From: a virus
Taxonomy: Duplodnaviria; Heunggongvirae; Uroviricota; Caudoviricetes
Strand: one strand, 5' to 3'
Virus record (IMG/VR): IMGVR_UViG_2778261005_000009
Length of the DNA stretch: 5,452 nucleotides
The notes under the pieces were generated by a model that saw only the letters and a program-made list of their open reading frames with translations, was not told the origin of the DNA and did no database searches. Position 1 is the stretch's first letter. Each line of letters begins with the position of its first letter. Shown piece by piece: positions 1,751 to 5,452 of the stretch. The position numbers and the translations under genes were made by a program.

Positions 1751-2064
1751 GTGGGTGGAAGACGTGGTGCCGGGCGGAAATCATGATACTCCGGCAGTGT
1801 GCGGGAACGATGAAGGTAAAAAGCGTTGGCGCACTTATCGGACGAACTGAAGCGGCAGTGAGAACGAAGGCACGGGAGCTGGGCATCAGCATGATGTTAC
1901 GTGGTGATTTTCACCCGTCGGCAAAATATTCTCAGCGTGATATTGAGCTGGCGCGGCAACTGCATCAGAGAGGCATGCAAAGAAGGGAAATTGCCAGAAA
2001 ATTAGGCATGCCGCTGCGCATAGTGAATAACTACGTTTATTTCGACAGGAGGGTGTCTGCGTGA
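1747..2064 (+). CDS. Small DNA-binding protein with GcrA-like N-terminal motif and NinH/Fis-like C-terminal HTH
   Basis: Frame 1 ORF ending TGA 2062-2064. Proposed start GTG 1747 overlaps the upstream stop (GTGA); alternatives are ATG 1783 and ATG 1810, all with weak [16 protein letters not shown]...[21 protein letters not shown] resembles the GcrA N-terminal HTH pattern, and [20 protein letters not shown] resembles the lambda NinH HTH (QTEVARRLKCSRGTVRKYV). Confidence 0.6.
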
Positions 2065-2288
2065 AAATCCTGTATCAGGATTACGGCCCGGTGGGGCAGG
2101 TGGTTATCAGCAGTACTGTAATGGAGTTTCGGAAGCATAACCGTGTGGTGGATGCTGTGCTGTTAACCTGTCCGGGGATATCGGCGAGTCGTGCAGGTGT
2201 GTTTATTATGAAGACGAAATTATATGGCAGTAAGGCGTGGATAAAGAAGGCGTATCGTGTAGCGTTGCAGGAGGTTAACAGTGAGTGA
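2061..2288 (+). CDS. Hypothetical phage protein (75 aa)
   Basis: GTG 2061 overlaps the upstream stop (GTGA) and is preceded by AGGAGG (2047-2052) at 8-nt spacing; stop TGA 2286-2288. No recognisable family. Confidence 0.6.
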   Translation: MKILYQDYGPVGQVVISSTVMEFRKHNRVVDAVLLTCPGISASRAGVFIMKTKLYGSKAWIKKAYRVALQEVNSE

Positions 2289-3612: not shown

Positions 3613-3630
3613 TGCTGCGGGTGCTTGAGG
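3613..3630 (+). promoter_or_regulatory. 5' element of hok mRNA complementary to its 3' end (tac/fbi-like long-range pairing, 5' partner)
   Basis: tgctgcgggtgcttgagg (3613-3630) pairs antiparallel with cctcaacgcacccgcg (3993-4008): 6 bp, a one-nucleotide bulge (C3999), then 10 bp including one G-U. Confidence 0.45.
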
Positions 3631-3664
3631 CTATCTGCCTCGGGCATGAACACCAACGGCAGAT

Positions 3665-3739
3665 AGAGAAAAGCCCCAGTTAACATTACGCGTCCTGCAA
3701 GACGCCTAACATTAATCTGAGGCTCAATCTATGAACGGC
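3665..3739 (-). ncRNA. Putative Sok-like antisense RNA (type I antitoxin), about 75 nt
   Basis: Minus-strand sigma70-like promoter (below) would start transcription near + coordinate 3739. The transcript is antisense to the upstream in-frame ATG (3731) and its SD (GAGG 3719-3722). It ends in a terminator-like structure on the minus strand: outer stem ccucag/cugggg (3717-3722 with 3674-3679, one G-U), inner stem gcguc/gacgc (3690-3694 with 3701-3705), then U-tract cuuuucucu (+ 3665-3673). Ends are approximate. Confidence 0.4.
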
Positions 3740-3745
3740 AAATCT

Positions 3746-3774
3746 AGGTTAGCCTCTTACGTGCCGAAAGGCAA
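3746..3774 (-). promoter_or_regulatory. Candidate promoter of the Sok-like antisense RNA
   Basis: On the minus strand: -35 TTGCCT (+ coordinates 3774..3769), 17-nt spacer, -10 TAACCT (3751..3746). The -35 overlaps the hok SD region on the opposite strand. Confidence 0.35.
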
Positions 3775-3787
3775 GGAGAAGCAGGCT

Positions 3788-3943
3788 ATGAAGCAGCAAA
3801 AGGCGATGTTAATCGCCCTGATCGTCATCTGTTTAACCGTCATAGTGACGGCACTGGTAACGAGGAAAGACCTCTGCGAGGTGCGAATCCGAACCGGTCA
3901 GACGGAGGTCGCTGTCTTCGTAGACTACGAATCTGAGAAGTAA
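3788..3943 (+). CDS. hok: Hok/Gef-family type I toxin (51 aa membrane peptide)
   Basis: ATG 3788 preceded by AGGAG (3774-3778) at 9-nt spacing; stop TAA 3941-3943. Product MKQQKAMLIALIVICLTVIVTALVTRKDLCEVRIRTGQTEVAVFVDYESEK aligns along its length with plasmid R1 Hok ([52 protein letters not shown]) and is very close to chromosomal HokD/RelF as recalled. The track ORF 3731..3943 is an in-frame upstream extension (ATG 3731), possibly a mok-like leader reading frame. Confidence 0.9.
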   Translation: MKQQKAMLIALIVICLTVIVTALVTRKDLCEVRIRTGQTEVAVFVDYESEK

Positions 3944-4062: not shown

Positions 4063-4407
4063 ATGAAAAAGGTATTGATTGCAGCACTTATTTCCGGTGT
4101 GTCTTTTGGCGCTTTTGCACAGCAGGGTGGTTTCCAGGGGCCAGAAGCAGAGCGTTCAACAGTAGCGCAGGCAAAAGAACTGAAGGATGATGCATGGGTT
4201 ATCCTTGAAGGGAGCATCGTTAAAAAAGTGGGTGATGAACGTTATGAGTTTCGTGACAATAGCGGGACAATTGTCACGGATATTGATGACAGCGTATGGG
4301 CCGGGCAGAATGTTTCTCCGAAAGACAAAGTAAGAATTGAGGGTGAAATTGATAAAGACCTGAGCAGTGTTGAAGTTGATGTAAAGGCACTGAAATTATT
4401 AAAGTAA
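4063..4407 (+). CDS. YgiW/YdeI (BOF, bacterial OB-fold) family periplasmic protein with signal peptide (114 aa)
   Basis: ATG 4063 preceded by AGAGGA (4051-4056) at 6-nt spacing; stop TAA 4405-4407. N-terminal signal peptide MKKVLIAALISGVSFGAFA followed by QQGGFQGP, then C-terminal IVTDIDDSVW...VRIEGEIDKD...VEVDVKALKLLK, which matches the BOF/YgiW pattern. Confidence 0.88.
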   Translation: MKKVLIAALISGVSFGAFAQQGGFQGPEAERSTVAQAKELKDDAWVILEGSIVKKVGDERYEFRDNSGTIVTDIDDSVWAGQNVSPKDKVRIEGEIDKDLSSVEVDVKALKLLK

Positions 4408-4424
4408 CCGCCCCTGCTTGTTAA

Positions 4425-4453
4425 GCCCGTCTTACTGACGGGTTTTCTGTTTG
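4425..4453 (+). terminator. Rho-independent terminator downstream of the YgiW/BOF-family gene
   Basis: Stem GCCCGTC (4425-4431) / GACGGGT (4437-4443), loop TTACT, followed by a T-rich tract (ttttctgtttg), 18 nt after the stop codon. Confidence 0.8.
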
Positions 4454-4479
4454 TACATTCCGGCGTATTGCCTTACAAT
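4451..4479 (+). promoter_or_regulatory. Candidate sigma70 promoter for the 4529 ORF / DUF968-like gene
   Basis: -35 TTGTAC (4451-4456), 17-nt spacer, -10 TACAAT (4474-4479). A TGACA-N5-TGTCA palindrome (4502-4516) sits between the -10 and the SD. Confidence 0.35.
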
Positions 4480-4528
4480 TCGCGCAGTCAGCCTGAACAA
4501 CTGACACCTGCTGTCACCGGAGAATCCG

Positions 4529-4801
4529 ATGACACAACACATAAAATCCCACAATTCTGAAGCCGACCCGGAAATTAAGCAGGGGAGGCGTTTTCGTGCG
4601 CCTCAGTATGGCTGGTTTCACTATCTGTTCTGTACGATCGATGAGGCAGATATGCTTCAAGAGGCGTATCTGCGTCGCGGTGTCCGTGTGGAGCGGAGTC
4701 TGAACGCTGATCGTCTGACCTGGACCGTTTCTGTATATCTTCCTGTTCGTGCACATCTGCCACGGACACATGCCTGCTACCGTCAGCGCGTCTGGAGGTA
4801 A
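4529..4801 (+). CDS. Small hypothetical protein (90 aa), possibly Rem-like; alternatively the shifted 5' part of the DUF968-like gene
   Basis: ATG 4529 preceded by GGAGA (4519-4523) at 5-nt spacing; stop TAA 4799-4801. The N-terminal about 60 residues look protein-like; the last about 25 (R/H/P-rich) look like out-of-frame translation of the overlapping DUF968-like frame. Position between a hok locus and a DUF968 gene parallels the rem-ydfU arrangement in the K-12 Qin prophage, as recalled. Confidence 0.45.
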   Translation: MTQHIKSHNSEADPEIKQGRRFRAPQYGWFHYLFCTIDEADMLQEAYLRRGVRVERSLNADRLTWTVSVYLPVRAHLPRTHACYRQRVWR

Positions 4802-5452
4802 TGTGCGGGTATTACTTCGACCTGTTCTGGTTCCGGAACTCGGGCTGGTGGTCCTTAAGCCCGGTCGTGAATCATTGCCAGTTTTTCATCGCGGCAGGGT
4901 GCTGGTGGAGCCGGAACCGAAAAACATGCGGGCGCTGCCATCTGGAGCGGTTCCTGCTGTTCGCCAGCCGCTGGCGGAAGATAAATCACTGCTGCCATTT
5001 TTCAGCGATGAGCGGGTGATTCGTGCAGCTGGCGGCGCTGGTGCACTGTCTGACTGGTTATTACGTCACGTGAAATCCTGCCAGTGGCCACACGGCGATT
5101 ATCATCACAGCGAAACCGTTATTCACAGTTACGGTGCTGGCGCAATGGTGTTGTGCTGGCACTGCGACAACCAGCTGCGCGACCAGACCTCCGAATCACT
5201 TGAGCAACTTACTCAACAAAATCTGACAGCCTGGATGATTGACGTCATACGCCATGTAATGAATGGCACGCAGGAGCGGGAATTATCGCTGGCTGAATTA
5301 TCCTGGTGGGCAGTCTGCAATCAGGTGGTGGACGCATTACCTGAGGCAGTATCGCGTCGCTCTCTGGGATTACCGGCGGAAAAAATCCGCTCCGTATACC
5401 GTGAAAGCGACATCATACCGGGAGAACAGACCGCCACCAGCATACTGAAGCA
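4770..5452 (+). CDS. DUF968-like protein with HNH-like Cys/His motif, 3'-truncated by window end
   Basis: Frame 0 is open from the stop at 4716-4718 to the end of the window and is absent from the ORF track because it has no stop. First ATG is 4770 (weak SD); alternative GTG 4749. Translation ..VKSCQWPHGDYHHSETVIHSYGAGAMVLCWHCDNQLRD.. contains a C..H..HH..CxxC arrangement reminiscent of HNH zinc-binding motifs. The DUF968 assignment is from memory of prophage YdfU-like proteins. Confidence 0.65.
   Translation, partial: MPATVSASGGNVRVLLRPVLVPELGLVVLKPGRESLPVFHRGRVLVEPEPKNMRALPSGAVPAVRQPLAEDKSLLPFFSDERVIRAAGGAGALSDWLLRHVKSCQWPHGDYHHSETVIHSYGAGAMVLCWHCDNQLRDQTSESLEQLTQQNLTAWMIDVIRHVMNGTQERELSLAELSWWAVCNQVVDALPEAVSRRSLGLPAEKIRSVYRESDIIPGEQTATSILK

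What the first reader, a model, noticed from the sequence alone, without database searches (positions are those of the whole stretch)
4529..5452. 90-codon ORF and DUF968-like gene overlap by 32 nt in different frames: possible frameshifted single gene
The upstream ORF looks protein-like for about 60 residues and then becomes Arg/His/Pro-rich, which is typical of out-of-frame translation. The downstream frame is open from 4719 but its first ATG is at 4770, with a poor SD. Either these are two genes with an unusual overlap (as rem and ydfU may be in Qin) or a single ancestral gene with a +1 shift near 4700-4770. The downstream product has an HNH-like Cys/His motif, suggesting a nuclease or zinc-finger function adjacent to the expected Q region.
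Basis: partly seen in the sequence, partly recalled or inferred. Interest (0 to 1): 0.5.

Follow-up and report, generated by a model that had tools for sequence, protein, structure and literature searches.

The report
Two coupled phage genes, not a frameshift
The supposed overlap or frameshift is an artefact of choosing the first ATG. These are two ordinary, already annotated prophage genes: a conserved 90-residue protein of unknown function, then a DUF968/HNH-type protein that starts at a GTG one base after the first gene's stop codon.

Summary
The ORF coordinates are correct: ORF 4529-4801; the other frame opens at 4719 with an ATG at 4770.

**Start of the DUF968 gene.** It starts at GTG 4803, preceded by GGAGG (4794-4798) and lying one base after the upstream TAA (4799-4801). 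All 80 related viral loci carry tggagg-TAA-n-GTG. In 60 of them there is no start codon upstream of the GTG in the open part of that frame. ATG 4770 occurs only in the window-type allele.

**The 90-aa ORF is a real, separate gene (phrog_1212).**
- Its Arg/His/Pro-rich tail is conserved to the last residue.
- Substitutions in the last 28 codons are overwhelmingly synonymous in its own frame: 1504 vs 216, against 48 vs 1676 in the DUF968 frame.
- All 33 cluster representatives are short and lack DUF968; about five are frame-shifted or truncated in the tail.
- In Enterobacter, Klebsiella and Citrobacter the same small gene sits two bases before RusA or YbcO genes.
- It is not Rem.

**The HNH idea is partly right.** The protein belongs to the His-Me finger group DUF968/YbcO. 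The catalytic motif lies at residues 276-318, beyond the window's end. The in-window Cys/His cluster (C93/H101/C118/C121) is a separate zinc-site-like module with no detectable HNH similarity.

Ordinary and already annotated.

The parts
4423..4445 (+). Terminator-like hairpin followed by a T-run, after the upstream BOF/YgiW-like gene (4063-4407). It marks the end of the preceding transcription unit and the start of the intergenic region before the small ORF.
   Evidence: Consensus scan. BOF Pfam hit.
4519..4523 (+). GGAGA, a Shine-Dalgarno-like sequence 5 nt before ATG 4529.
   Evidence: Read directly from the sequence. The Qin allele has the same ccggaga...ATG layout.
4529..4801 (+). Small gene of 90 codons plus TAA. 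It is a phrog_1212 family protein of unknown function, WP_000191872.1 in RefSeq. The predicted core is beta-alpha-beta-beta (residues 26-73), flanked by low-confidence (probably disordered) N- and C-terminal tails.
   Evidence: ORF. PGAP CDS. phrog_1212 E=1.5e-34, covering residues 26-90 to the end of the profile. 33 short homologue clusters. Synonymous-biased substitutions in this frame. Structure.
4770..4772 (+). Rejected as a start codon.
   Evidence: No SD in front. Present in only 20 of 80 related loci. DNA homology with the Qin-type alleles begins only at about 4784-4791, downstream of this ATG.
4794..4798 (+). GGAGG Shine-Dalgarno sequence for the DUF968 gene. It is embedded in the last two sense codons (TGG AGG = Trp-Arg) of the small gene.
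   Evidence: Sequence. tggagg TAA n GTG in 79 of 80 related loci (one has tggaga). Same in Qin.
4799..4801 (+). TAA stop codon of the small gene, 1 nt before the GTG start of the next gene. This is a termination-reinitiation (translational coupling) layout.
4803..5452 (+). 5' part (codons 1-216 of 349) of the DUF968 / YdfU-family gene, WP_001265229.1. It runs off the window's end. The HNH catalytic motif (residues 276-318) is not in the window.
   Evidence: PGAP CDS from GTG. phrog_96 'HNH endonuclease' profile positions 1-333 match residues 1-348. Pfam DUF968 259 bits on the full-length identical copy. Distant homologues share the same N-terminus.
5079..5171 (+). In-window Cys/His cluster: C93 (5079-5081), H101 (5103-5105), C118 (5154-5156), C121 (5163-5165), D122 and N123 (to 5171). 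It is a putative structural zinc site on a beta-hairpin plus helix in the N-terminal domain. It is not the HNH active site.
   Evidence: C93, C118, D122 and N123 are invariant in the 8-sequence alignment A3. H101 becomes Cys and C121 becomes His in P1 PdcB and Vibrio phage Her. C93, H101, C118, C121 and D122 are invariant in A4. Model has beta 105-110, beta 113-118, alpha 119-125 at about pLDDT 75-87. hhalign against the C-terminal HNH domain gives probability below 1%. No Pfam hit in residues 1-159.

Best explanation
Window 4529-5452 holds two separate, adjacent and probably translationally coupled genes of the nin (replication-to-Q) region of a lambdoid prophage of Shiga-toxigenic E. coli.

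Gene 1 (4529-4801) encodes a 90-residue protein of the phage family phrog_1212. It has a compact beta-alpha-beta-beta core and a conserved basic tail ending in Trp-Arg.

Gene 2 starts at GTG 4803, not ATG 4770, and encodes a 349-residue DUF968/YdfU protein. This has an N-terminal domain with a Cys/His zinc-site-like module, a low-confidence linker, and a C-terminal His-Me finger (HNH) domain that lies beyond the window.

The last two sense codons of gene 1 (TGG AGG) are the Shine-Dalgarno sequence of gene 2, and its TAA stop lies one base before the GTG. Ribosomes finishing gene 1 are therefore placed to reinitiate on gene 2. This step is inferred from the layout and is not shown.

The DUF968 protein is most likely a metal-dependent DNA nuclease acting with or alongside RusA in phage recombination or DNA processing. 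This is inferred from fold and gene neighbourhood and has not been tested. The function of the small protein is unknown. My best guess is a small nucleic-acid- or nuclease-associated accessory factor, held with low confidence.
For: 1. Annotation: RefSeq PGAP calls two CDSs, 4529-4801 and 4803 onward. Qin in a K-12 derivative has the same pair with the junction ctggaggTAAcGTG.
2. In 80 of 80 IMG/VR loci the DUF968 match begins at the GTG. 78 of 80 have an upstream ORF ending 1 nt before it. 60 of 80 have no ATG/GTG/TTG upstream of the GTG in the open part of that frame.
3. Megablast similarity to the ~85%-identical Qin-type alleles starts at window ~4784-4791, between the ATG and the GTG.
4. 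PHROG profiles: phrog_96 position 1 aligns to residue 1 of the GTG-start protein. phrog_1212 aligns to residues 26-90 and reaches the last profile position.
5. Distant DUF968 proteins (Citrobacter Chris1, mEp460, Klebsiella KpF5, Serratia BZS1, P1 PdcB, Vibrio Her) align from Met1 but have unrelated upstream genes.
6. phmmer against 1.84 billion representatives finds 33 homologue clusters of the small protein, 49-248 aa. For about 28 of them the match runs to within a few residues of the C-terminus, the rest being frame-shifted or truncated in the tail, and none is joined to DUF968.
7. In 26 Qin-type alleles, single-base codon differences in the last 28 codons are 1504 synonymous vs 216 non-synonymous in the small-ORF frame. 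In the DUF968 frame they are 48 vs 1676.
8. In Citrobacter, Klebsiella and Enterobacter the same small gene ends ...MWG/WR-TGA and is followed 2 nt later by YbcO (PF07102) or RusA genes.
Confidence: 0.93

Rival explanations
1. A single ancestral gene was split by a +1 frameshift near 4700-4770, so the 90-codon ORF is the out-of-frame N-terminal remnant of the DUF968 gene.
For: The tail of the upstream product is Arg/His/Pro-rich and modelled with low confidence. The downstream frame is open for 84 nt before the GTG. One singleton fusion protein exists in the databases (P0172).
Against: No intact fused homologue appears among 33 small-protein clusters or among the 240 best-scoring DUF968 proteins listed in two searches that found 887 and 1483 hits, apart from the deletion singleton. 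The tail is conserved to the stop across genera. It evolves under purifying selection in its own frame only. DUF968 homologues in distant phages start at the same Met with unrelated genes upstream. The small gene occurs in front of RusA and YbcO genes with no DUF968 present.
Confidence: 0.02
2. There are two genes with a real 32-nt out-of-frame overlap, with DUF968 translation starting at ATG 4770.
For: ATG is the commonest start codon, and this one is in frame and open in the window-type allele (20 of 80 loci). Some automatic gene callers also produce extended 375-377 aa forms in related alleles.
Against: There is no SD before 4770, whereas GGAGG precedes GTG 4803. The ATG is absent from 60 of 80 related loci, which have no upstream start in the open part of that frame. 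The 11 extra residues are outside the phrog_96 profile and outside all distant homologues. There is no synonymous-site signal in that frame upstream of the GTG. The curated MG1655 and PGAP annotations use the GTG.
Confidence: 0.04
3. A programmed +1 ribosomal frameshift fuses the small protein to DUF968 in a fraction of translation events.
For: The downstream frame is open for 84 nt upstream of the GTG in the window and for about 75 nt in Qin.
Against: There is no constraint in the DUF968 frame in the would-be overlap (48 synonymous vs 1676 non-synonymous). The small gene is found in front of different downstream genes, which argues against a shared frameshift device, although those junctions were inspected only for start, stop and spacing.
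Confidence: 0.01

Closest known systems
YdfU of the E. coli K-12 Qin cryptic prophage (b1560, Pfam PF06147 DUF968; His-Me finger group 7 in PMC5714182)
   Same: Same length (349 aa) and 85% protein identity. Same GTG start and the same ggaggTAAnGTG junction. Same position in the nin-to-Q region, although here RusA lies between the DUF968 gene and a DUF1133 protein, whereas in Qin the antiterminator ydfT follows ydfU directly.
   Different: The gene immediately upstream is a divergent allele: 35% protein identity and no megablast DNA similarity. The window allele also carries an extra, non-conserved in-frame ATG 33 nt upstream.
Unannotated 92-codon ORF between rem and ydfU in Qin (WP_012304870.1 in PGAP annotations); PHROG family phrog_1212
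   Same: End-to-end homologue of the window's 90-aa ORF (35% identity, E=2e-18). Both hit phrog_1212 at about 1e-35. Both end ...QR(V/I)WR-TAA one base before the DUF968 GTG.
   Different: The sequence is strongly diverged, a typical mosaic allele. The function of both is unknown, and the ORF is absent from the curated MG1655 record NC_000913.3.
YbcO (DLP12 prophage, PDB 3g27, Pfam PF07102) and phage P1 Ref (PDB 3plw), small His-Me finger nucleases
   Different: YbcO and Ref are single-domain proteins of about 80-190 aa. DUF968/YdfU has an additional ~190-residue N-terminal region containing its own Cys/His module, shared with P1 PdcB. No activity has been shown for YdfU or PdcB.
Rem (Qin, b1561)
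   Different: No sequence similarity to the window's 90-aa ORF (BLASTP E=18). In Qin it lies one gene further upstream.

Membership tests
Frameshifted / split single gene (pseudogene) | Intact relatives encode one continuous protein spanning both parts. | tested here: not met
   All 33 small-protein clusters are short and none is joined to DUF968. DUF968 proteins are 326-352 aa and start at the same Met. The only fusion is a singleton with a 13-nt junction deletion.
Frameshifted / split single gene (pseudogene) | The region after the presumed shift shows no selective constraint in the upstream frame. | tested here: not met
   The last 28 codons show 1504 synonymous vs 216 non-synonymous differences in the upstream frame. 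The tail motif LP..PR..(Y/W)xQ(R/K)xW(R/G) is conserved across genera.
Overlapping gene pair (32-nt overlap from ATG 4770) | The upstream start codon is conserved and preceded by a ribosome-binding site. | tested here: not met
   The ATG is present in 20 of 80 loci only. 60 of 80 have no start codon upstream of the GTG in the open frame. There is no SD before 4770.
Translationally coupled gene pair | The stop of gene 1 lies within a few nt of the start of gene 2, and the SD lies inside gene 1. | tested here: met
   TAA 4799-4801, GTG 4803, GGAGG 4794-4798. Conserved in 78-80 of 80 loci, and with a 2-nt gap in other genera.
Translationally coupled gene pair | Translation of gene 2 depends on translation of gene 1. 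| not testable with these tools
   Needs reporter fusions with a premature stop in gene 1.
Pfam DUF968 (PF06147) / His-Me finger group 7 | Profile match above the curated threshold. | tested here: met
   47.9 bits for the in-window part (cut-off 27.8). 259.4 bits for the full-length protein of the 100%-identical genomic copy.
Pfam DUF968 (PF06147) / His-Me finger group 7 | beta-beta-alpha-metal core with CxxC...HH...CxxH-HN..H residues. | tested here: met
Pfam DUF968 (PF06147) / His-Me finger group 7 | Metal-dependent nuclease activity. | not testable with these tools
   None of the papers read here reports an activity for YdfU or PdcB, and PdcB is listed as of unknown function.
HNH motif for the in-window Cys/His cluster (residues 93-123) | Detectable sequence or profile relationship to HNH domains, with a catalytic His at the end of beta-1. 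| tested here: not met
   No Pfam or PHROG HNH hit covers residues 1-159. hhalign between the N and C domains gives probability 0.3%. H102 is not conserved, and H101/C121 interchange with Cys/His like metal ligands. A structural superposition of this sub-domain alone could not be done.
PHROG phrog_1212 (small phage protein, unknown function) | Full-length profile match. | tested here: met
   E=1.5e-34, residues 26-90 against profile 2-66 of 66.
Rem (Qin) | Sequence similarity to Rem. | tested here: not met
   BLASTP E=18.

The most novel reading that the evidence does not exclude
The phrog_1212 small protein could be a dedicated partner (regulator, inhibitor or DNA-targeting subunit) of nin-region DNA nucleases. 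In every locus examined it is the immediately upstream, translationally coupled neighbour of a DUF968, YbcO or RusA gene, and its conserved C-terminal Trp-Arg/Gly codons double as the nuclease gene's Shine-Dalgarno sequence. The homologous 92-codon ORF is missing from the curated E. coli K-12 MG1655 annotation.
Probability: 0.15. Interest if true: 0.35.

Novelty: already known. Interest (0 to 1): 0.08.

Why it matters
It matters little beyond annotation hygiene. The case shows how choosing the first ATG creates a false overlap or frameshift when the real start is a GTG coupled to the upstream stop codon.

Three minor points may be useful. A conserved phage gene family (phrog_1212) has a member in Qin that the curated MG1655 record does not list. 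That small gene is consistently coupled to nin-region nuclease genes. The N-terminal half of YdfU-type proteins carries a separate zinc-site-like module shared with P1 PdcB. All of these proteins remain without an experimentally shown function.

Tried and rejected
1. Word-indexed homologue search with the 90-aa protein returned only near-identical E. coli sequences and sequencing-error variants. It was replaced by an exhaustive phmmer search.
2. Pfam, NCBIfam and PADLOC scans of the small protein found nothing meaningful.
4. I looked for evidence that the in-window Cys/His cluster is a degenerate duplicate of the C-terminal HNH. By eye, CWHCDN resembles CREHHN, but hhalign found no relationship and a PDB sequence-profile search found nothing.
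A 93%-identical homologue was modelled instead.
6. The idea that the 90-aa ORF is Rem, or a 'toxin to Rem' as one phage record labels its homologue, was rejected by direct comparison.
7. Literature searches for DUF968, YdfU and PdcB gave classification only, with no functional data.

Full report
**Where the window comes from**

Window 4400-5452 is 100% identical to chromosomes of many Shiga-toxigenic E. coli (O157:H7, O26, O111, O121, O145). 493 complete-genome records match at 99% identity or better. In O157:H7 PV15-279 the stretch lies in a degraded lambdoid prophage next to rspAB. The gene order there is Hok/Gef, a BOF (YgiW/YdeI-like) protein, a 'hypothetical protein', a DUF968 protein, RusA, a DUF1133 protein, and then tRNA genes. 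This is therefore the nin-to-Q region of a lambdoid prophage, and the sequence is not a sequencing error.

**Checking the observation**

- The ORF list confirms a 90-codon ORF at 4529..4801.
- The other frame is closed by TGA 4716-4718, opens at 4719, and has its first ATG at 4770.
- The arithmetic of a 32-nt overlap is correct if that ATG were the start, and there is indeed no Shine-Dalgarno sequence before it.
It sits four bases after a perfect GGAGG (4794-4798) and one base after the upstream TAA (4799-4801).
- PGAP annotates the DUF968 CDS from exactly this GTG (locus 6404 = window 4803).

**Which start is real**

Six independent lines point to GTG 4803.

1. In 80 related loci from IMG/VR (88-100% protein identity), the junction reads tggagg-TAA-n-GTG in 79, and tggaga in one. 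An upstream ORF ends one base before the GTG in 78 of 80. In 60 of 80 the open part of the DUF968 frame upstream of the GTG contains no ATG, GTG or TTG at all. The ATG at -33 exists only in the 20 window-type alleles.
2. Thousands of E. coli genomes, including K-12 Qin ydfU, match at about 85% DNA identity. Their similarity begins at window 4784-4791, between the ATG and the GTG. The mosaic module boundary therefore lies just before the ribosome-binding site of the GTG.
3. The PHROG profile phrog_96 ('HNH endonuclease', 334 positions) aligns position 1 to residue 1 of the GTG-start protein.
4. Distant homologues align from Met1 with the GTG-start protein, yet have quite different upstream genes (RusA, a KilA-N regulator, replication protein O, PdcA and others). 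These homologues are Citrobacter phage Chris1, mEp460, Klebsiella KpF5, Serratia BZS1, phage P1 PdcB and Vibrio phage Her, at 28-58% identity.
5. Both the curated MG1655 record and PGAP give ydfU as 349 aa.

**Is the upstream ORF a real, separate gene?**

Yes, on the following evidence.

- It hits phrog_1212 at E=1.5e-34, with residues 26-90 covering the profile to its last position.
- It is 35% identical end to end (1-90 vs 1-92, E=2e-18) to the 92-codon ORF that precedes ydfU in Qin.
- An exhaustive phmmer search of 1.84 billion cluster representatives found 33 homologous clusters of 49-248 aa. For about 28 of them the match runs to within a few residues of the protein's C-terminus. The others are frame-shifted or truncated in the tail. 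None is joined to DUF968.
- The 'out-of-frame-looking' tail is a family feature, LP....PR....(Y/W)x(Q/N)(R/K)(V/I/M)W(R/G)-stop. It is conserved in Citrobacter, Klebsiella and Enterobacter prophages.
- Among 26 distinct Qin-type alleles, single-base codon differences in the last 28 codons are 1504 synonymous vs 216 non-synonymous in the small-ORF frame. In the DUF968 frame they are 48 vs 1676. Variable sites by codon position number 3, 8 and 18. This excludes both a frameshifted remnant and dual coding or programmed frameshifting through this stretch.
- The only fused protein found (P0172, 438 aa, a singleton) reads ...TFQQR-MRVLL.... It is best explained by a 13-nt deletion that removes the end of the small gene and the junction.
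- The ORF is unrelated to Rem. In Qin, rem lies one gene further upstream.

**Anatomy and likely mechanism**

The small gene has its own SD (GGAGA 4519-4523) and follows a terminator-like hairpin (4423-4445) that ends the BOF gene. Its last two sense codons, TGG AGG, form the SD of the next gene, and its stop lies one base before the GTG. This is the classic layout for termination-reinitiation coupling. That step is an inference from the sequence layout and was not tested.

The same device recurs in other genera...TGG GGG TGA nn ATG/GTG. There the downstream gene is RusA in six loci, YbcO (PF07102) in three loci, and a truncated remnant in one locus. The small gene is thus an independent mosaic module that is regularly placed, and coupled, in front of a nin-region DNA nuclease gene.

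**The DUF968 protein and the HNH question**

- The full-length protein (349 aa, read from the identical genomic copy) matches Pfam DUF968 at residues 160-346 (259 bits) and weakly matches HNHc_6 at 271-319.
- Residues 276-318 carry CACCG...DPHH...CREHHNELH, conserved across the family.
- The literature places DUF968 with DUF1364/YbcO as group 7 of the His-Me finger superfamily and names YdfU explicitly (PMC5714182). An earlier paper noted the HNH zinc-finger motif in DUF968 proteins (PMC4118853).

However, the window ends at residue 216, so the catalytic motif is not in the window.

- C93, C118, D122 and N123 are invariant. H101 becomes Cys and C121 becomes His in P1 PdcB and Vibrio phage Her, which is the behaviour of metal ligands. 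H102 is not conserved.
- The model places the ligands on a beta-hairpin plus helix at about pLDDT 75-87.
- No HNH profile covers this region, and hhalign between the N-terminal and C-terminal domains finds nothing (probability 0.3%).

I read it as a separate structural zinc site. A remote beta-beta-alpha relationship cannot be excluded, because I could not superpose the sub-domain on its own.

**Comparison with what is known, and verdict**

Both genes are already annotated in RefSeq (WP_000191872.1 and WP_001265229.1). The pair is the STEC-prophage counterpart of the Qin pair formed by the unnamed 92-aa ORF and ydfU.

The finding is an artefact of start-codon choice and is ordinary. The only mildly new observations are listed under 'noticed in passing'. 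I put confidence in the two-gene, GTG-start explanation at 0.93.

Noticed in passing
L102 (NC_000913.3 1642500-1647500), about locus 1807-2085, minus strand; equivalent to L002:1233-1511: The curated MG1655 record annotates nothing between ydfU (b1560) and rem (b1561). That 346-nt gap holds a conserved 92-codon ORF (phrog_1212 family, WP_012304870.1 in PGAP-annotated K-12 derivatives) whose stop lies one base before the ydfU GTG.
   Followed up: partly
L006-L015 (Citrobacter, Klebsiella, Enterobacter), about 2492-2700 of each locus: The same small gene (66-68 aa there) ends ...MWG/WR-TGA and is followed 2 nt later by RusA (six loci), YbcO/PF07102 (three loci) or a truncated remnant (one locus). 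Its final Trp-Gly/Arg codons (TGG GGG / TGG AGG) serve as the SD of whichever nuclease gene follows.
   Followed up: partly
P0172 (438 aa, singleton, from a 420 kb NCBI contig): An in-frame fusion of the Qin-type small ORF and YdfU (...TFQQR-MRVLL...), consistent with a 13-nt deletion across the junction. It may be a natural mutant or an assembly error. P0025 looks like a similar read-through into a YbcO-like gene.
   Followed up: no
window 5079-5171; L100:1405-2445 (P1 pdcB); L101:1450-2454 (Vibrio phage Her): The N-terminal domain of YdfU-type proteins, with its C/H/C/C site, is shared with phage P1 PdcB (function unknown, non-essential according to PMC10695390) and with Vibrio phages. Cys and His swap at two ligand positions.
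   Followed up: partly
window 3619-3793 and 3731-3943: A hok/sok type I toxin-antitoxin module. Rfam sok scores 105.6 bits at 3619-3793, overlapping the 5' part of a 70-codon mok-like ORF that contains the Hok/Gef domain (Pfam E=1.1e-22).
   Followed up: no
window 4063-4407 and 4423-4445: A BOF (YgiW/YdeI-like, OB-fold, signal-peptide-bearing) gene followed by its own terminator-like hairpin, which looks like a moron inserted in the nin region. The first 55 nt of window 4400-5452, which span the 3' end of this gene and the start of the hairpin, are also found at 94.5% identity in 933W/Sakai-type Stx phages.
   Followed up: no
L001:1897-3889 (O157:H7 PV15-279): In that genome the left part of this prophage is degraded. 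A truncated integrase and an IS1203 (IS3 family) insertion lie next to rspAB, so in that strain the element is a prophage remnant.
   Followed up: no
L003:1559-1837 (phage vB_EcoS-813R8): The homologue of the small ORF is labelled 'toxin to Rem' in this GenBank phage record. The label has no support in the sequence comparisons made here.
   Followed up: partly
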